Part shown: one piece after another, positions 27,309 through 31,335 of the stretch
Layout: the number at the start of each line of letters is the position of its first letter
Position numbering within the stretch: the first letter of the stretch is position 1
NCBI GenBank assembly: GCA_963777605.1
Contig: CAVZRV010000011.1
Span: 15,269 to 79,268, forward strand
Length of the DNA: 64,000 nt
Direction: 5' to 3'
From: an uncultured Acidobacteriota bacterium
GTDB lineage: Bacteria > Acidobacteriota > UBA6911 > RPQK01 > JAPXNP01
Position numbers and translations under genes: made by a program
Notes under the pieces: generated by a model
Database searches by the model: none
The model's input: only the letters and a program-made list of their open reading frames with translations
Told to the model about the DNA's origin: nothing

Positions 27309-27379
27309 CCGAATGAACTCCCCGGTCATGGGAAGACCAGAATTACGCGGAACTCCTCTGACGTCCATTCCGGAGAAGA

Positions 27380-27800
27380 GCCAAGCGTCGAAGCTGCAAC
27401 GACAAGAGACTTTCTTGCCATCTCTCGCGAGCCGGATCGGATGCCCGAGTTGGTCAATCCTACGGTCATTGTCGAGGATGAGATACCGCGCCCGTCTTTC
27501 AAAACACGCGTTCCGAACCTCCCGCTTCACCCAGTCCAACCTCGGGTGTTGGGTCAGGTTGAAGTGCACGACTCTTCAGCGTTCAAGCCCCAGGCAGAAA
27601 GATTCGTTGAGTCCAGACAAGGGCAACCAGATTCAGGACCTGAACGACCATGAGCACAAGCAGGATCTTCGCGCTGCAGGCATGGGCTGATGAAGCAGAA
27701 AGAGCCAACCCGTCGAGGCCGCACAGAGTTCTTGCGGACGACGACACTGCTCGCGGCAGGTTCGGCCGCTGTTGAATTTTGATTGACACGTCAAACAATA
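27380..27800 (-). mobile_element. Decayed rve (DDE) integrase/transposase remnant
   Basis: The minus-strand text RVVHFNLTQHPRLDWVKREVRNACFERRARYLILDNDRRIDQLG resembles the region after the second catalytic Asp of IS481/IS3-like integrases (xHFNVTxHPTxxW...RYLIxDRD). Upstream and downstream parts are out of frame or interrupted. No N-terminal HTH is present. Confidence 0.4.
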
Positions 27801-27811
27801 TGCTTTAGCTT
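27783..27811 (+). promoter_or_regulatory. Sigma-70-like promoter candidate overlapping a TTGAC-ac-GTCAA palindrome
   Basis: TTGACA (27783-27788), a 17-nt spacer and TAGCTT (27806-27811) lie 46 nt upstream of ATG 27857. The -35 element is part of the inverted repeat TTGACacGTCAA. Confidence 0.35.
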
Positions 27812-27856
27812 ATTGCCAGCCTAACCTGCCTATTTGCTTTCAAGCTTGGGACACGC

Positions 27857-29484
27857 ATGACTATTTGGGATGGACTCCTTGAATTCTTTGAGGATGGATG
27901 GGATACCTTAGAAAACCCCGTCTACACCCGCGCGCGAAAACACGCCAAAGCGATGGCGGAAGAATACAACCTCGGGACGGACGTCGAGGCATTTGAGGAA
28001 CTTTGGGGACTTACCATCAATGCCTCCCTGCTGGCTAAGCTGAACGACGAATCCGCAATCAAGGAAGTCGTCCGATTGATCGGCCGCCTTCGTGTCTTGG
28101 TCGATCGGACTCCTTCCGACTCAACGTCCATTTTCAGTCCTCGCAGCGCGATCGATGAAGACGGAATGGAATCGGTTCACGTGGCTGATGCATCCGCTAA
28201 GTATGTCATTTTCTCGGACCACCACATGCTGTTCGATGGTGCCCGTCAGAACTTCTTCGCGACGAGCGGGAACCGAGACTTCTACACGGAGATCTTAACT
28301 CGGTATTACGCGGCCAATGAGTTCAACCTTGTTAAAAACGGCGACTTCGAGGAGCTGATCATTGTAGAAGATAAATCGGCGGAGAATCCGAGACCATGGG
28401 CGATTTACCGAGCCAGGTATTCGACTACAGAAACAGCAAGAAGATCCCTCAACTGAAGAGTATTGTCCGAGACAACATTGAGTACTACGAGGCCCTTCAC
28501 GGTGGGTTCATCTCGAAGGGCCGGTACTTCAAGATCACCGGGAACCATGACCGCGATATGGGCAAAGCCGGTTACGCCAGTGTGGTGAGCGAAATCCTGG
28601 GACATGCATTTCCATTAGCCTGCGACGTGATGCTGTTGAAGTCGCGCGGCATCACCGAGTTCATCATCTGTCACGGCCATCAGTTCGACACGTCTTGTAC
28701 GCCGAAATTCGCCGCAAAGGCAGGCGAGTCCTTCTCCCAGGCTTCGGCCTGGGCTTTTCAGGGGCCCGACCGGATTTGGCGCACGAAGTACGACCAGATG
28801 GATGCATGGCTCGCGGGCCGGGAGCCCTTCCTCAACGCACTTGTGACCGATGAGCCTGATTCGGGCGGGTTCCTGGAGCAGGAGGTATGCGAAGATGCTC
28901 AGCAGGCCTGGGATGCACTTGGAATGGAGATCTCCAATCTGAACACTGAACGGGGCTGGGAATCCATATATGGCAAGAACATCGCCTGGAATTACTTCGA
29001 GAATGAAGGCGATCCCCAAAAGTGCATCGACCTCGAAGTCTCTACCGGAAAACGCTGGTTCAAATTCCGTCATTTGAACGAGTTGCGTCTGACCGTGGAA
29101 CTCGAAAATGCTTTCGGTCCGCGAGTCCCGACTCTCATCCTGGGACACACTCATGAACCCAGGTTCCGCCCGAGGAAAGCGAGCGGACAGTCCGGACATT
29201 CGCAGAATTGGCAGGAGATCGACTTCTATGCCAACAGCGGATCGGCCGGGAGGTTCGAGAACCTGATCTGGGGAATCGAGATCCTCGACCGGGCGCCTCT
29301 TCTGATCTCATGGCACCGCGACGGTGACCGAATGCCGGTCCGTACGGTCTGGGAGTCATTCGGGACAAACGGCGGCTTTCTGCGGCCGGCATCGAGTGGG
29401 ACGCCAGAAGAATTTCTGGGTCCCGGGGAGGATTCCGCGGTGGATTTCTGCAGCGTAATGATTGCCGCCGGTCAGATTCTCTGA
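27857..29484 (+). CDS. Calcineurin-like metallophosphoesterase (~540 aa) with a ~110-aa helical N-terminal extension. The frame breaks between 28373 and 28400.
   Basis: All five MPE motifs are present in order across the two ORFs: VIFSDHHM, NGDFEEL, ITGNHDRD, ICHGHQFD and LILGHTHEP. The second ORF's frame opens only after the TAA at ~28370. Confidence 0.7.
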
Positions 29485-29520
29485 CACCGGCTGCCAACTG
29501 GATAACGATTGGAACTCGGC

Positions 29521-30836
29521 ATGGATTTGTTCAGCGAAGCACCGTTTGCGATCTGGCAGGGATTCCGGCATTCCTGGACTTACAACCATCGCCTGAACCG
29601 GTTGGGAGACTGGGTGGTCAACCGGGAACGGGGGGGGACTCGGTCTCGGTTGAATTCGGTCACTCGGCAGCTTCCGGATCCGGTGAGGATCGGGCCAGTT
29701 TCGAGACCTTCGGAGCCACCACGAAAGCTGACGGGATTTGCGTCAGGGATTTTCACCGCGAAGTGCAGATCCGCTCCCGTGAGGAGGAGAACCAGACCTT
29801 CTTTTGTGAAATCAGGGTCGGTGCGGAGGCCGGCATTCCCGACGACTGTGATGTCTTCGAAGCCTGCCTCAGTGGGTTTGACCTCTGGTCCGAGAAAGAC
29901 GCCGACAAGCTGATCAGCCTTCACCTGGCCACATCACCCCCGGCTCTGGACGAACAGACGGGCGAGATTGTCTTCAGCATCTTTGGCGGGATGAACGTCG
30001 ATTGCGACAGCCCGGAATGCGACCTTCACGATGGCGCGGGCGCAACAATTGCCTGGATGGCTGCCGGCGGAATGGCCGGGCAGCTACTCGGCGGTCCAGC
30101 TGGGGCGGCCGCAGGCGCACTGTTTGGCGGCCTCTTTTCCAAGCTCGACATTTCCACGGACTACACACTCAGACTGCATGTCGTTCTGATTTGCGGAAAA
30201 TCTGACCACTTGGCCGCAACCCGAAAGACGTTTTCGAACGAGTTGACCTGGGATACCACAACCCCGATCACCCTCGAAAACGAGGGGACACAGCGGGTTG
30301 AGGTGAGGGGAGACCGCCCGGGCCCGTGGAGAGTGAGTCTTCCCGGCATCCACCAGATTTCACTGGAGGTGACAAGAGAAAAGGGCTTTCTGCGGCCCGA
30401 CACGGCCATGCATCTCCTGGAGTGGGACATGGCAGTCCGCCCAGTTGAAATGACGGGCACAGGCTGCACTGTCGACCTGGACCTCTTCTTCCGCAACTGG
30501 CGCCCCCGCGAGTCCGTTTTTCTGGACAGACAGATCGACCTGGGTCTGCTCAGCGAGATCGATTTGGTGGACGAGCTTGCCGAAGATATTTCTTCGCATC
30601 GCGATGCGGGATCCGCATCGCTGACGCTGGGATTGACTCTCCTCCAGTTCGCCCAGCCCGGCATTATTGAACAGGATGCCAAGATCGGGGGTCTGACTTG
30701 GCGGGGCGGCAACGCCAGCGCGAAGTCAAATGACGCCGTCTACACGACCGTTGTCCCTCACGAAATCTCGGCAGCGGCTCAACCGTTGACGAGTGACTCC
30801 AATTCGATCCTGGTCGCAGTCGAAAACTGCAACTGA
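29521..30836 (+). CDS. Hypothetical ~438-aa protein with a central glycine-zipper hydrophobic segment. The frame breaks at a G8 tract.
   Basis: From ATG 29521, frame 1 reads MDLFSEAPFAIWQGFRHSWTYNHRLNRLGDWVVNRERGG. After the G8 run, frame 0 continues DSVSVEFGHSAASGSGEDRASFETFGATTKADGICVRDFHREVQIRS... into the listed 29763-30836 ORF. The central segment is GAGATIAWMAAGGMAGQLLGGPAGAAAGALFGGLF. I recognise no family. Confidence 0.6.
29630..29637 (+). repeat. Homopolymeric G8 tract inside the 5' coding region
   Basis: This is read directly from the sequence: aacGGGGGGGGact. A G9 tract would put the two halves of the 29521-30836 gene in one frame. Confidence 0.95.
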
Positions 30837-30858
30837 AACACGAAAAGGACTGAATCCA

Positions 30859-31335
30859 ATGGCAGAGAAAAGAAATCGAAGAGGCCGCAATCCTGAAGAC
30901 AGAGCAAAACGGACTCCGACCCCGGTTCGGGAGGCTGTGCCCCGAACCGGCACAAGCCCGCGGGGAGTCGACCCGGGCGATATCAAGGGGATCAATGCGC
31001 TGGTTACTCGGGGACGGGTCGCAGGCTATACAGTGGATTCCAACGGACTCGTGGTCAAACTCGATGTCAGCGCACTCAGCCGAATCGCCTTCTCGGTCAG
31101 TGCAGACGCCCCGCATTTCCGCCCCGCCGTGTCCATGACAATGATGGCCCTGAACAACCGGATTAACCCTGCAACTCAGGAAGGATCGGCTCATGACCAG
31201 CAGTACCTGTGGGTCAAGCTCCAGTCCAAAGCGGGCGGTGGCAACATCACGCCCGCCGCCGCCGTGGGGCTGTCCAACAGCAACGAAGCTGATCCCTTTG
31301 ACGTTGCCGGATTCGTCTTCTCTCCTGAATCGTAG
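30859..31335 (+). CDS. Hypothetical 158-aa protein with an Arg/Pro-rich N-terminal tail
   Basis: ATG 30859 lies 20 nt after the upstream stop. The product reads MAEKRNRRGRNPEDRAKRTPTPVREAVPRTGTSPRG, followed by a beta-rich domain. I recognise no family. Confidence 0.5.
   Translation: MAEKRNRRGRNPEDRAKRTPTPVREAVPRTGTSPRGVDPGDIKGINALVTRGRVAGYTVDSNGLVVKLDVSALSRIAFSVSADAPHFRPAVSMTMMALNNRINPATQEGSAHDQQYLWVKLQSKAGGGNITPAAAVGLSNSNEADPFDVAGFVFSPES

What the first reader, a model, noticed from the sequence alone, without database searches (positions are those of the whole stretch)
27330..31335. Three-gene cassette of unknown function beside an integrase remnant
Downstream of a decayed rve-integrase fragment (minus strand, ~27380-27800) and its own sigma-70-like promoter lie three tightly spaced plus-strand genes.
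- (1) A ~540-aa calcineurin-like metallophosphoesterase with all five catalytic motifs and an extra helical N-domain.
- (2) A ~438-aa protein whose N-terminus (WQGFRHSWTYNHRLNRLGDWV ... FGHSAASGSGED) looks like a conserved motif block I cannot place. Its centre is a 35-aa Gly/Ala zipper (GAGATIAWMAAGGMAGQLLGGPAGAAAGALFGGLF) of the kind seen in membrane-inserting or pore-forming proteins.
- (3) A 158-aa protein with an Arg/Pro-rich tail.

A ~750-bp stretch without convincing ORFs follows. A phosphoesterase plus a potential membrane-disrupting effector next to mobile-element debris resembles an accessory conflict, toxin or defence module. I know of no described system with this composition.
Basis: partly seen in the sequence, partly recalled or inferred. 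Interest (0 to 1): 0.7.

Follow-up and report, generated by a model that had tools for sequence, protein, structure and literature searches.

The report
Orphan three-gene phosphoesterase operon
A real but rare three-gene operon of unknown function encodes a very divergent metal-dependent phosphoesterase, a large all-beta protein with a greasy membrane hairpin, and a small partner protein; it matches no known defence system, and its two large proteins end in the same short tail, which suggests the small protein assembles them.

Summary
The three plus-strand genes exist: g1 27857-29484, g2 29521-30836, g3 30859-31335. Their linkage is conserved in about nine lineages (Rhodobacter sp. Har01, Rhodovastum, Paracoccaceae and Acidobacteriota MAGs, soil contigs, and a rearranged Halorhabdus locus).

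In this window g1 and g2 each carry a one-base deficit in a G run. Almost every neighbouring gene is also split, and a 97%-identical contig differs by 37 indels. These are most likely long-read assembly errors.

- **g1** keeps all five metallophosphoesterase motifs but belongs to no curated family.
- **g2** belongs to an uncurated two-domain all-beta family (433 clusters) with no structural relative in PDB or BFVD. Only the g1-linked clade carries the Gly/Ala hairpin.
- **g3** belongs to a small-partner family that accompanies g1 in many genomes even without g2.
- **New here:** g1 and g2 end in the same roughly 10-residue C-terminal peptide. It co-varies within loci and with the partner type, so g3 probably docks both.

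The "integrase remnant" fails Pfam, PHROGs and tblastn, and the promoter is weak. The ORF-less stretch holds a truncated group II intron on the minus strand. There are no PADLOC hits, no defence neighbours, and no viral or plasmid copies. My best reading, at modest confidence, is a membrane-associated phosphoesterase complex with an unknown substrate.

The parts
27306..27856 (.). It contains a terminator-like hairpin (27753-27769, T-rich tail), then a perfect -35-like TTGACA (27782-27787) with a weak -10 (TAGCTT) 17 nt downstream.
   Evidence: The upstream gene's true C-terminus (...YAPTRPPLYNESNYLPFVSWPAWKPHGQ*) ends near 27305. There are no Pfam, PHROGs or tblastn hits for the minus-strand ORF fragments. 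Hairpin. Sequence. The promoter scan finds 0 sites.
27857..29484 (+). g1: divergent calcineurin-like metallophosphoesterase, 542 aa after repair. It has a helical N-domain, a catalytic core with a roughly 150-aa cap insertion between motifs IV and V, a C-terminal beta-sheet, a flexible linker and a C-terminal peptide.
   Evidence: There are 119 or more homologues of about 540 aa covering 100% of the repaired protein. The five motifs are invariant. The window protein hits Pfam Metallophos only at 16 bits against a cut-off of 21.5. The AF2 model of the homologue has pLDDT 87.7, and its best PDB fold hits are the MPEs Lmo2642 and SbcD, only at E>=0.014.
28398..28400 (+). Frameshift site in g1. 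Reading switches from frame 2 (...CCA TGG) to frame 1 (GGC GAT...), so one G of a G run appears to be missing.
   Evidence: The repaired protein has the same length as the P0038 homologue across the junction.
29452..29481 (+). C-terminal peptide of g1 (SVMIAAGQIL), the proposed docking tail.
29521..30836 (+). g2: two-domain all-beta protein of an uncurated family, 438 aa after repair. It has no signal peptide. Family motifs are WQGFRHSWTYNHRLNRLG (29554-29607), HSAASGSG.D and VDCDSPEC (29997-30020).
   Evidence: There are 36 homologues in the word-indexed search and 433 representative clusters in the profile search. No Pfam, NCBIfam or PDB sequence hit was found. The AF2 model of the 53%-identical homologue has pLDDT 79.4 and pTM 0.79, with no fold match in PDB or BFVD.
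29630..29637 (+). G8 homopolymer where g2 shifts from frame 1 to frame 0. G9 restores a protein length-matched to homologues.
   Evidence: A 97%-identical contig (L058) has T+G6 at this position, and the two assemblies differ by 37 gap openings in 4.9 kb.
30033..30137 (+). Hydrophobic Gly/Ala-rich helix-turn-helix (GAGATIAWMAAGGMAGQLLGGPAGAAAGALFGGLF) inserted between the two beta domains of g2.
   Evidence: The hairpin is 44-53 aa and is present in all 19 close (g1-linked) homologues. It is absent or replaced by polar sequence in distant ones. The model has low confidence here and predicts two helices. Weak Pfam Bacteriocin_IIc and C19orf12 hits fall below cut-off.
30804..30833 (+). C-terminal peptide of g2 (SILVAVENCN), the proposed docking tail that resembles the g1 tail.
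   Evidence: (p=7e-4 against 8,856 background C-termini).
30859..31335 (+). g3: small partner protein, 158 aa. It has a disordered Arg/Pro/Lys-rich N-terminal 50 aa and a conserved core of about 105 aa starting at 31009 (RGRVAGYTV...PHFR.AVSMTM.ALNNR...).
   Evidence: There are 11 homologues and no Pfam, PDB or PHROGs hit. g3 lies downstream of g2 in L001, L003, L010 and L013. An iterated profile joins it to the 'gS' small proteins that flank g1 elsewhere.
31601..31851 (-). Truncated group II intron RNA (part of domains D1-D4) inside the 'ORF-less' stretch. It is not part of the operon. It lies just downstream of the convergent CMD/AhpD-like gene.
   Evidence: Rfam RF02001 scores 56.8 bits (gathering 32, E 1e-9) at 31851-31683, and RF01998 scores 28.6 bits at 31681-31601. 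There is no D5/D6 model hit or D5 motif, and no RT ORF.

Best explanation
The region is an accessory operon that encodes a membrane-associated phosphoesterase complex of a kind not yet described.

**Shown**
- g1 is a catalytically complete but very divergent calcineurin-like metallophosphoesterase.
- g2 is a two-domain all-beta protein of an uncurated family. In the g1-linked clade it has no signal peptide and carries a 44-53-aa hydrophobic Gly/Ala hairpin between its domains.
- g3 belongs to a family of small proteins (disordered N-tail plus a core of about 100 aa) that sits directly beside g1 in many genomes, with or without g2.
- g1 and g2 are not homologous, yet they end in the same roughly 10-residue C-terminal peptide behind a flexible linker. 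The peptide type changes together in both proteins and tracks the type of small partner.

**Inferred**
- The small protein binds these C-terminal peptides and so brings the enzyme and the beta protein together.
- The hairpin of g2 places the complex on the cytoplasmic face of the membrane. In some relatives a similar hairpin in the g1 cap, or a transmembrane segment, would do the same.
- There g1 would hydrolyse a phosphoester or pyrophosphate bond of a membrane- or surface-bound substrate. The substrate is unknown.

The two frameshifts in this window are most likely homopolymer errors of a long-read assembly, not gene decay.
For: **Linkage**
- g1+g2+g3 occur together in the window, L001/L014 (Rhodobacter sp. 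Har01), L003/L012 (Rhodovastum MAG) and L010/L015 (Acidobacteriota MAG).
- g2+g3 occur in L013, where the contig starts inside g2.
- gS+g1+g2 occur in L006 and L070, and g2-gS-g1 in L132.
- The Halorhabdus locus L005 has g2 next to a fused MPE.
- Every close g2 homologue with readable flanks has g1. All 37 distant g2 loci lack it.

**g1**
- Motifs are invariant in 35 sequences, and 17 of those 35 give weak Metallophos_2 hits.
- The top fold hits are MPEs.

**Small partner**
- An iterated profile seeded on g3 recovers 32 ORFs among 9,051. All of them lie directly beside g1, upstream or downstream.

**Shared tail**
- A PSSM trained only on g1 tails scores 8 of the 19 close g2 tails (scores 11.0-27.4) above the highest of the 8,856 background C-termini (8.62), and 14 of 19 score at p<=6e-4. 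The window's g2 tail has p=7e-4.
- Same-locus g1 and g2 tails are more alike than shuffled pairs (27 of 5,040 permutations reach the observed score).
- The tail DNA is not alike (13-21 of 36 nt), so this is not recent gene conversion.
- g1 copies with a partner have hydrophobic tails, while partner-less g1 copies mostly end right after the beta domain (Mann-Whitney p=6e-7).
- Tail type 'L.IA.(D/E)H.L' goes with g3, and 'WL...L..MM' goes with gS.

**Membrane theme**
- The g2 hairpin is conserved in 19/19 close homologues.
- Eight g1 homologues carry a Gly/Ala hydrophobic hairpin in the cap, and others have N-terminal transmembrane segments.
- The archaeal MPE fusion has a transmembrane-like segment and phasin/perilipin-like repeats.
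- Distant g2 relatives are membrane-anchored or PGF-CTERM surface proteins.

**Assembly errors**
- At least 7 frameshifts occur in about 10 kb: g1, g2, the RGL11-like gene, the CMD gene and the penicillin amidase gene.
- The 97%-identical contig L058 differs by 37 gap openings, including at the G run.
Against: - No substrate, activity, interaction or localisation has been tested. The docking role of g3 rests on co-variation and co-occurrence counts that are not corrected for phylogeny, and no multimer model could be run.
- The hairpin helices (about 16-18 aa each) are short for full membrane spans and were modelled with low confidence.
- The invariant Cys pair (DCDSPEC) and the secreted or surface location of most family members would fit an extracytoplasmic g2 better. 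Yet the g1-linked clade has no signal peptide.
- One g1 with the tail motif (L055) has no small partner within 6 kb.
- hhalign alone does not link g3 and gS significantly (E=0.056). The link depends on intermediates.
- g2 carries a genuine +1 insertion in the Acidobacteriota MAG in three assemblies. So decay, or selection against g2, is possible in that lineage.
Confidence: 0.4

Rival explanations
1. Conflict module. This would be an abortive-infection, toxin or defence cassette. g2 would be a membrane-disrupting effector released or controlled by the phosphoesterase g1. g3 would act as inhibitor, antitoxin or adaptor.
For: - The phyletic distribution is patchy, from Alphaproteobacteria to Acidobacteria to a haloarchaeon, and the flanking genes differ in every genome.
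- The hydrophobic Gly/Ala hairpin resembles membrane-inserting glycine zippers, with weak Bacteriocin_IIc and C19orf12 hits.
- g2 is interrupted in two lineages, and one interruption is genuine, as can happen with toxic genes.
- The archaeal locus has a Peptidase_C25-like gene next to the MPE. MPE-like enzymes are listed among protease-associated defence effectors in a 2025 preprint (PMC12642450).
- A group II intron remnant lies beside the cassette.
Against: - No PADLOC-DB hit at E<=1 for any of the three proteins.
- No recognisable defence gene lies within about 8 kb in any locus. Neighbours are two-component systems, Kdp, transporters, peptidases and amidohydrolases.
- There are no relatives on IMG/VR viral contigs or PLSDB plasmids.
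- g1 is often alone or only with the small partner.
- SARP-like BTAD/TPR regulators sit upstream in four loci, which is more typical of regulated physiology.
- The bacterial trios have no protease.
Confidence: 0.2
2. Peptide-directed assembly or compartment system. The small g3/gS protein would be a scaffold or shell-like receptor. The shared C-terminal peptides of g1 and g2 would be cargo-loading signals, the same logic as encapsulin or microcompartment targeting peptides. The result would be a protein body or membrane microdomain rather than a simple enzyme complex.
For: - Two non-homologous proteins of one operon share a terminal peptide behind a flexible, low-confidence linker.
- The peptide type co-varies with the small-protein type.
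- The small protein has a long disordered tail of variable composition.
Against: - g3/gS has no similarity to encapsulin, BMC or any Pfam or PDB family.
- There is no evidence of oligomerisation.
- Only one or two 'cargo' proteins are involved.
- A simple 1:1 adaptor explains the same data.
Confidence: 0.1
3. Decaying relic in this genome. The frameshifts in g1 and g2 would be real, and the cassette would be a pair of pseudogenes plus g3, beside other mobile-element debris.
For: - Two of the three genes are out of frame.
- The closest relative's g2 carries a real +1 insertion in three assemblies.
- A truncated intron lies next door.
Against: - Frameshifts also hit the neighbouring housekeeping-type genes (RGL11-like, CMD, penicillin amidase) at a rate of at least 7 per 10 kb.
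- Both cassette shifts are single-base deficits in G runs.
- The near-identical contig L058 has different indels at the same places.
- Apart from these shifts the reading frames are open and conserved along their whole length.
Confidence: 0.1
4. Phase-variable g2. The G8/G9 tract near the 5' end of g2 would be a contingency locus that switches the gene on and off by slipped-strand mispairing.
For: The G-run length differs between two near-identical assemblies (G8 against T+G6), and the run lies in the first 40 codons.
Against: Both assemblies are indel-rich everywhere. Homologues encode the same residues (R-E-G-G) at this position, and the tract was not examined in their DNA.
Confidence: 0.03

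Closest known systems
Calcineurin-like metallophosphoesterase superfamily (Pfam PF00149/PF12850). The nearest solved folds are Lmo2642 (2xmo) and SbcD/Mre11. LpxH is the name some sources give to homologues.
   Same: All five metal-binding and catalytic motifs are present (D-x-H, G-D, G-N-H-D, H-G-H, G-H-x-H-E), in the canonical order and invariant. A large insertion sits between motifs IV and V, where LpxH carries its lipid-binding cap according to the published LpxH structures (my own knowledge, not tested here). In some homologues this insertion holds a hydrophobic hairpin.
   Different: The window protein is below the Pfam gathering score (16 against 21.5 bits). No NCBIfam family, including LpxH, matches at E<=0.1. 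Fold matches are weak (E>=0.014, TM<=0.29). The protein also has an extra helical N-domain, a four-strand C-terminal sheet and a docking-type tail.
Glycine-zipper membrane hairpins (Bacteriocin_IIc, C19orf12, glycine-zipper 2TM lipoproteins)
   Same: The g2 insertion is a 35-50-aa Gly/Ala-rich hydrophobic helix-turn-helix with repeated small-xxx-small spacing. Weak Pfam hits to Bacteriocin_IIc (E 0.039) and C19orf12 (E 0.066) fall on it.
   Different: The hits are far below cut-off. The hairpin is an insertion between two large beta domains of a protein without a signal peptide, and relatives of the same fold lack it.
Cargo-loading or encapsulation peptides (encapsulins, bacterial microcompartments), and adaptor proteins that read terminal peptides (my own knowledge of these systems)
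   Same: Non-homologous proteins encoded together share a short terminal peptide behind a flexible linker. The peptide co-varies with a small co-encoded protein.
   Different: g3/gS shows no sequence similarity to any shell or adaptor family. Binding is untested, and the motif (L-x-I-A-V-D/E-H-A-L) matches none that I know.
Protease-associated defence effectors that include an MPE-like enzyme (Evans et al. 2025 preprint, PMC12642450)
   Same: An MPE is encoded beside a clan-CD-like peptidase in the archaeal relative L005.
   Different: The bacterial trios, this window included, have no protease gene. There is no PADLOC hit. I did not compare sequences with that paper's MPE family.
Group II introns (for the neighbouring ORF-less stretch only)
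   Same: The stretch scores above threshold against an Rfam D1-D4 model, and it lies just after a hairpin downstream of a convergent gene.
   Different: D5/D6 and the reverse transcriptase are missing, so it is a dead 5' fragment. It is not part of the operon.

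Membership tests
Calcineurin-like metallophosphoesterase superfamily (g1) | Five conserved motifs: DxH, GD, GNH(D/E), H, GHxH | tested here: met
   SDHH, NGDFEE, GNHD, CHGHQ and GHTHE are present in the window protein and invariant in 35 homologues.
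Calcineurin-like metallophosphoesterase superfamily (g1) | Profile match at the curated Pfam threshold (PF00149 or PF12850) | tested here: not met
   The window protein scores 16 bits against 21.5 and 11.9 against 27. Of 35 homologues, 17 give sub-threshold or weak hits, best E 3.5e-5. The archaeal fusion passes PF12850 at 29.6 against 27.
Calcineurin-like metallophosphoesterase superfamily (g1) | MPE fold (beta-sandwich core) in a structure comparison | tested here: inconclusive
   The model is confident (pLDDT 87.7). The top PDB matches are MPEs (Lmo2642, SbcD, Mre11), but at E 0.014-2.4 and TM <=0.29.
LpxH (UDP-2,3-diacylglucosamine pyrophosphatase) | Match to the curated LpxH family model | tested here: not met
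   NCBIfam gives no LpxH hit at E<=0.1 for any of 35 family members. Only JGI's automatic names say LpxH.
rve (retroviral-type) integrase / IS transposase remnant | Profile or sequence similarity of the minus-strand text at 27186-27800 | tested here: not met
   No hits in Pfam at E<=1, PHROGs at E<=1 or tblastn against PLSDB at E<=1.
Known anti-phage defence systems (PADLOC-DB v2.0.0) | Any of the three proteins matches a model of a known or candidate system | tested here: not met
   0 families at E<=1 for g1, g2 and g3.
Known anti-phage defence systems | Location in defence islands, or carriage by phages or plasmids | tested here: not met
   Neighbours in 6 loci and in the window are metabolic or regulatory. 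No viral-contig or plasmid relatives were found. No formal enrichment statistic was run.
Known anti-phage defence systems | Protection against phage, or toxicity on expression | not testable with these tools
   This needs an experiment.
Glycine-zipper / class IIc bacteriocin-like membrane peptides (g2 hairpin) | Profile match at the curated threshold | tested here: not met
   Bacteriocin_IIc scores 14.4 bits against 27.1, and C19orf12 scores 13.4 against 30.
Beta-barrel or aerolysin-type pore-forming toxins (g2) | Fold similarity to a solved pore former | tested here: not met
   The best PDB E-value is 0.012 with TM <=0.14. Outer-membrane barrels and aerolysin appear only as noise-level hits.
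Group II intron (31601-31851, minus strand) | Covariance-model match to D1-D4 above the gathering score | tested here: met
   RF02001 scores 56.8 bits against 32, E 1e-9.
Group II intron (31601-31851, minus strand) | Catalytic domain V/VI and an intron-encoded reverse transcriptase (a complete, mobile intron) | tested here: not met
   No RF00029 hit at E<=1 in 26500-33000. No CCGTA...TACGG motif in the window. No RT-like ORF.

The most novel reading that the evidence does not exclude
The g3/gS small proteins are a new class of receptor or scaffold that reads a C-terminal 'address' peptide. They would use it to assemble non-homologous clients (the phosphoesterase and the hairpin-bearing beta protein) into a membrane-bound body. 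This would be a cargo-targeting logic like that of encapsulins or microcompartments, built from entirely unrelated parts and shared by bacteria and archaea. If the assembled machine also kills or protects cells, it would be a new kind of conflict system.
Probability: 0.12. Interest if true: 0.8.

Novelty: categorically new. Interest (0 to 1): 0.55.

Why it matters
If the reading holds, three things follow.
- **A new protein fold family.** g2 gives a confident model with no structural neighbour in PDB or BFVD. The family has 433 sequence clusters, ranging from haloarchaeal surface proteins to Bacteroidota membrane proteins, and is absent from Pfam and NCBIfam.
- **A new metallophosphoesterase branch.** It has at least 119 members and its own obligate-looking small partner.
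- **A directly testable assembly rule.** The same C-terminal decapeptide sits on two unrelated proteins and co-varies with the partner. This turns a "hypothetical operon" into concrete experiments: tail swaps, pull-downs and multimer models.

The operon is intact in a sequenced isolate, Rhodobacter sp. Har01, so genetics may be feasible. The value is limited by the lack of any functional read-out. Nothing here shows what the enzyme cuts or why cells keep the operon.

Tried and rejected
**Known families for the three proteins.** I searched Pfam, NCBIfam, PHROGs, PADLOC, PDB sequence profiles, and Foldseek against PDB and BFVD. Only sub-threshold MPE hits for g1 came back.

**Integrase remnant.** Four minus-strand ORF fragments gave nothing in Pfam, PHROGs or tblastn against plasmids. 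I rejected this reading.

**Cassette inserted into the group II intron.**
- No D5/D6 model hit lies on the far side of the cassette or elsewhere in the region searched (26500-33000), and no D5 sequence motif occurs anywhere in the window.
- No meaningful flanking repeats were found.
- A 15-nt inverted pair at 27711 and 31600 is within chance expectation by my own rough estimate.
- blastn of the intron stretch against plasmids found nothing.

**g3 as a copy of a g2 hairpin.** hhalign of g3 66-111 against g2 271-316 gives E 0.4, which is not significant.

**Direct g3-gS homology by hhalign.** E is 0.056 over 24 columns. I accepted the link only through intermediates and position.

**Function from neighbours of distant g2 relatives.** Only a DUF6796 multi-pass membrane protein recurs, in 8 loci, and the literature has nothing on it.

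**Function from g1 neighbours.** BTAD/TPR or STAND-type regulators occur in 4 loci, and no enzyme partner recurs.

**Mobility.** No copies were found on viral contigs or plasmids.

**Literature.** Searches for MPE plus glycine zipper and for MPE in defence returned no matching system.

**Phase variation at the G run.** I considered this unlikely, given the indel-rich assemblies.

Full report
**1. What is in the sequence**

Between 27857 and 31335 there are three plus-strand genes.

- **g1** starts at ATG 27857 and stops at 29484, but it is read in two frames. Frame 2 runs to ...CCA TGG (28394-28399) and frame 1 continues from GGC GAT. One G is therefore missing from the run GGG at 28398-28400.
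- **g2** starts at ATG 29521 (an upstream TTG at 29509 is possible) and stops at 30836. It shifts from frame 1 to frame 0 inside the G8 run at 29630-29637. A ninth G gives ...NRERGGDSVSVEFGH..., which matches the length of the closest homologue across the junction.
- **g3** runs 30859-31335 and is intact at 158 aa.
- The gaps are 36 nt and 22 nt, so the layout is that of an operon.

**2. Are the frameshifts real?**

Probably not.

- The neighbouring genes are broken in the same way.
  - The RGL11/FG-GAP-like gene changes frame near 27200 and really ends near 27305 (...YAPTRPPLYNESNYLPFVSWPAWKPHGQ*).
  - The CMD/AhpD-like gene is in two ORFs.
  - The penicillin amidase gene is in at least four ORFs.
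- That makes at least 7 shifts in about 10 kb.
- A second public contig of a near-identical organism (L058, 97% identity over 4.9 kb) differs from the window by 37 gap openings. At the g2 G run it reads T+G6 instead of G8.
- The window's contig is 534,684 bp long and L058 carries a 'contig_N' name, so both look like long-read assemblies.
- Both cassette shifts are single-base deficits in G runs.
- I therefore treat the genes as intact in the organism, with about 10% left for real decay.
- By contrast, the closest homologue of g2, in an Acidobacteriota MAG, carries a true extra T (ACG T CGT GAA). The insertion is identical in three assemblies.

**3. The claimed integrase remnant and promoter**

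- The minus-strand ORF fragments between 27186 and 27800 give no hit in Pfam at E<=1, in PHROGs, or by tblastn against 72,556 plasmids.
- The stretch 27306-27856 is simply intergenic.
- It holds a terminator-like hairpin (27753-27769 plus a T tail), then a perfect TTGACA at 27782-27787 with a poor -10 (TAGCTT) 17 nt on.
- The consensus scan reports no promoter.

**4. g1**

- The big protein collection holds at least 119 relatives of about 540 aa. They cover the whole repaired protein, so the repair is right.
- None has a precomputed Pfam metallophosphoesterase domain. All but one have no precomputed Pfam domain at all.
- The window protein reaches only 16 bits on Metallophos against a cut-off of 21.5.
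- No NCBIfam model matches, LpxH included.
- Yet the five metallophosphoesterase motifs are invariant across 35 aligned members and are present in the window copy.
- The AlphaFold2 model of the 65%-identical homologue is confident (pLDDT 87.7, pTM 0.89). It shows:
  - a helical N-domain (residues 3-91);
  - the catalytic core, with a mostly helical insertion of about 150 residues between motifs IV and V;
  - a four-strand C-terminal sheet;
  - a low-confidence tail.
- The best PDB fold matches are metallophosphoesterases (Lmo2642, SbcD, Mre11), but only at E 0.014-2.4.
- So g1 is a member of the superfamily by its motifs, but of no curated family.

**5. g2**

- The word-indexed search finds 36 relatives. 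A profile search of 1.84 billion representatives finds 433 clusters.
- No Pfam, NCBIfam or PDB sequence match exists.
- The family signature is W-QGFRH-W-YNHRLNRLG, HSAASGSG-D, GFDL...DADKL, VDCDSPEC, MHLLEWD, LFFRNW and HRDAG...LLQF, with 21 invariant columns.
- The model of a 53%-identical member (pLDDT 79.4, pTM 0.79) shows two blocks of about nine long antiparallel strands each.
- Foldseek finds nothing credible in PDB (best E 0.012, TM <=0.14) or in BFVD.
- Many relatives match as two separate stretches, which fits a two-domain build.
- Distant members carry signal peptides or transmembrane anchors. Some are the N-terminal part of 1,100-1,400-aa haloarchaeal surface proteins with PKD, PEGA, PPC and PGF-CTERM domains.
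  - It is 44-53 aa long, hydrophobic and centred on a Pro/Gly turn in all 19 close homologues.
  - In distant homologues it is absent or replaced by polar sequence.
  - It is therefore an acquired feature of one clade, not the core of the protein.
  - Its Pfam resemblances (Bacteriocin_IIc, C19orf12) are below threshold.

**6. g3 and the small-partner family**

- g3 has only 11 detectable relatives and no Pfam, PDB or PHROGs match.
- Its first 50 or so residues are basic, Pro-rich and unconserved. The core from RGRVAGYTV onwards is well conserved.
- When I fetched 79 metagenomic loci around g1 relatives, I found another small protein (gS, 100-145 aa) in ten of them. It also has a disordered N-tail and a core with the motif NYNA.(F/Y)SLLLA.W.
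  - It lies immediately upstream of g1 in those ten loci.
  - Weaker versions lie immediately downstream in others.
- hhalign alone does not join g3 and gS (E 0.056).
- Intermediates exist in L076, L068 and L101.
- An iterated profile seeded only on g3 ends with 32 hits among 9,051 ORFs. Every one of them lies directly beside a g1 gene.
- I conclude, with moderate confidence, that g3 and gS are one family and that the conserved core of the system is g1 plus a small partner.

**7. Linkage**

- The flanks of 43 genomic g2 loci and 79 metagenomic g1 loci were scanned with profiles.
- Every close g2 homologue with readable flanks has g1 next to it:

| Locus | Organism or source | Genes |
|---|---|---|
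| window | unknown | g1+g2+g3 |
| L001/L014 | Rhodobacter sp. Har01 | g1+g2+g3 (569+438+166 aa) |
| L003/L012 | Rhodovastum atsumiense MAG | g1+g2+g3 |
| L010/L015 | Acidobacteriota MAG | g1+g2+g3 |
| L013 | Paracoccaceae MAG | g2+g3 (contig starts inside g2) |
| L006 | metagenome contig | gS+g1+g2 |
| L070/L071 | soil contigs | gS+g1+g2 |
| L132 | metagenome contig | g2-gS-g1 |
| L005 | Halorhabdus sp. SVX81 | g2, then a 1,198-aa protein whose C-terminal third is the MPE |

- The 37 distant g2 loci, mostly Bacteroidota, have neither g1 nor g3.
- Conversely, most g1 genes have no g2.
- The genes around the trio differ in every genome: two-component systems, the Kdp pump, ECF sigma factors, peptidases and amidohydrolases.
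- Four loci have a BTAD/TPR or STAND-type regulator just upstream of g1.

**8. The shared C-terminal peptide (new observation)**

g1 and g2 are unrelated in sequence and fold. Yet in the g3-type loci both end, after a Pro/Ala/acidic linker, in (T/x)-L-(R/x)-I-A-(V/A)-(D/E)-H-(A/V)-(L/I)-COOH.

| Locus | g1 tail | g2 tail |
|---|---|---|
| L001 | TLRIAADHII | VLRIAADLGN |
| L010 | LLVAVELVL | VLVAFENCN |
| window | SVMIAAGQIL | SILVAVENCN |
| L006 (gS-type) | WLAAVLPIMFAE... | WLAPALQMMMAD... |

In the gS-type loci both tails follow the pattern WL...L..MM.

- A position matrix trained on ten g1 tails alone scores 8 of the 19 close g2 tails above the highest of the 8,856 background ORF C-termini. 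The background maximum is 8.6, while those g2 tails score 11.0-27.4. In all, 14 of 19 have p<=6e-4. The window's g2 tail has p=7e-4.
- Same-locus tails are more alike than shuffled pairings. Only 27 of 5,040 permutations reach the observed score.
- The tail DNA is not alike (13-21 of 36 nt), so the similarity is kept at the protein level.
- g1 genes with a small partner nearby have hydrophobic tails. g1 genes without one mostly stop right after the beta sheet. The median best 9-residue hydropathy is 1.66 against 0.26 (Mann-Whitney p=6e-7).
- These counts are not corrected for shared ancestry.
- In both models the tails are low-confidence helices on flexible linkers.
- The simplest reading is that the small protein binds these peptides.

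**9. Membrane theme**

Besides the g2 hairpin:
- Eight g1 homologues, including those of L003 and L006, carry their own Gly/Ala-rich hydrophobic hairpin in the cap insertion just before the KNIAWEYF motif. Others start with a transmembrane helix.
- The archaeal MPE fusion has a transmembrane-like segment before the catalytic domain. Its N-terminal 850 aa of helical repeats touch Phasin_2 (25.4 bits, cut-off 24.9) and, weakly, Perilipin and REF.

This is why I place the complex at a membrane or lipid surface. Against a cytoplasmic location, the invariant Cys pair in DCDSPEC and the extracytoplasmic location of most of the family would suit an exported g2. That tension is unresolved.

**10. Defence or toxin?**

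- PADLOC gives nothing at E<=1.
- No neighbour in any locus looks like a defence gene.
- None of the three families is found on 2.9 million viral contigs. g1 and g2 are not found on 72,556 plasmids.
- A 2025 preprint lists MPE-like enzymes among protease-associated defence effectors (PMC12642450). Only the archaeal locus has a peptidase neighbour (Peptidase_C25-like, 25 bits against 23).
- The patchy distribution and the changing contexts do fit an accessory, horizontally moving module.
- I leave 20% for a conflict function.

**11. The ORF-less stretch**

- On the minus strand, 31851-31683 matches Rfam group-II-D1D4-3 at 56.8 bits (gathering 32, E 1e-9). The stretch 31681-31601 weakly matches D1D4-1.
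- The probable 5' end is near 31931. It sits right after a hairpin that follows the convergent CMD-like gene. The resemblance of that end to class C introns is from my memory, not a test.
- There is no domain V/VI and no reverse transcriptase, so it is a dead 5' fragment.
- It lies next to the operon but is not part of it. I found no repeats or other sign that the cassette was inserted into it.

**12. Verdict**

The integrase and promoter details are not.
- The 'accessory module of unknown kind' reading stands. The 'defence/toxin' reading is unsupported but not excluded.
- The operon consists of a new branch of a known enzyme superfamily plus two families with no known relatives. They are tied together by a shared terminal peptide.
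- I rate it categorically new as a gene system.
- Interest is moderate, because no function is shown.

Noticed in passing
window 31601-31931, minus strand: A truncated group II intron lies here. Rfam RF02001 scores 56.8 bits and RF01998 scores a weak 28.6 bits. It sits just after a hairpin downstream of the convergent CMD/AhpD-like gene. It has no domain V/VI and no reverse transcriptase.
   Followed up: partly
window 24000-35400: Nearly every gene in this stretch is split by frameshifts. The RGL11/FG-GAP-like gene shifts near 27200. The CMD-like gene 32083-32661 is in two ORFs. The penicillin amidase gene 32912-35372 is in at least four ORFs. A 97%-identical contig (L058) differs by 37 gap openings in 4.9 kb. 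The assembly looks indel-rich, so ORF calls across the whole window should be distrusted.
   Followed up: partly
L010 9520-9545 (also L011, L015): The closest g2 homologue, in an Acidobacteriota MAG, carries a one-base insertion (ACG T CGT GAA) that splits it into 286 + 151 aa. The insertion is identical in three separate short-read-style assemblies, so it seems real there.
   Followed up: partly
L005 9307-13444 (Halorhabdus sp. SVX81): The archaeal MPE is the C-terminal third of a 1,198-aa protein. The N-terminal 850 aa of that protein are helical repeats that hit Phasin_2 and, weakly, Perilipin and REF, followed by a transmembrane-like segment. The next gene (184 aa) is Peptidase_C25-like.
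   Followed up: partly
P0208, P0214, P0216, P0226, P0269 (relatives of g2): The g2 domain forms the N-terminal part of large haloarchaeal surface proteins with PKD, PEGA, PPC and PGF-CTERM domains. In one case it is fused to a GDSL lipase. Most of the family is therefore extracytoplasmic.
   Followed up: partly
L026, L035, L036, L044, L046-L049: In eight loci of distant (Bacteroidota-type) g2 relatives, the adjacent gene is a multi-pass membrane protein of about 220 aa from family DUF6796. No paper in the library mentions that family.
   Followed up: partly
L001 3925-6012, L003 3199-6174, L055 3507-5669, L072 1203-4040: A BTAD/TPR (SARP-like) or STAND-NTPase-type regulator lies just upstream of g1 in four otherwise unrelated loci. 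The window has none.
   Followed up: partly
window 38000-50500: A stretch of higher G+C (62-66% between 38 and 46 kb) runs into a minus-strand cluster at 40.8-50.5 kb. The cluster has an OmpA-domain protein (40827-41963), a 1,132-aa HerA/FtsK-like ATPase (42075-45473) and a 1,447-aa Big_7 protein (46143-50486). This may be a separate island.
   Followed up: no
window g3 residues 66-111 against g2 residues about 271-316: There is a faint resemblance (..AI..I...V......FR....M......P) between the g3 core and one hairpin of g2. hhalign gives E 0.4, which is not significant.
   Followed up: yes
window 27711-27725 and 31600-31614: A 15-nt inverted pair (14/15 complementary) brackets the cassette, and its right arm lies at the end of the intron match. 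By my own rough estimate about one such pair is expected by chance in 5.4 kb.
   Followed up: partly
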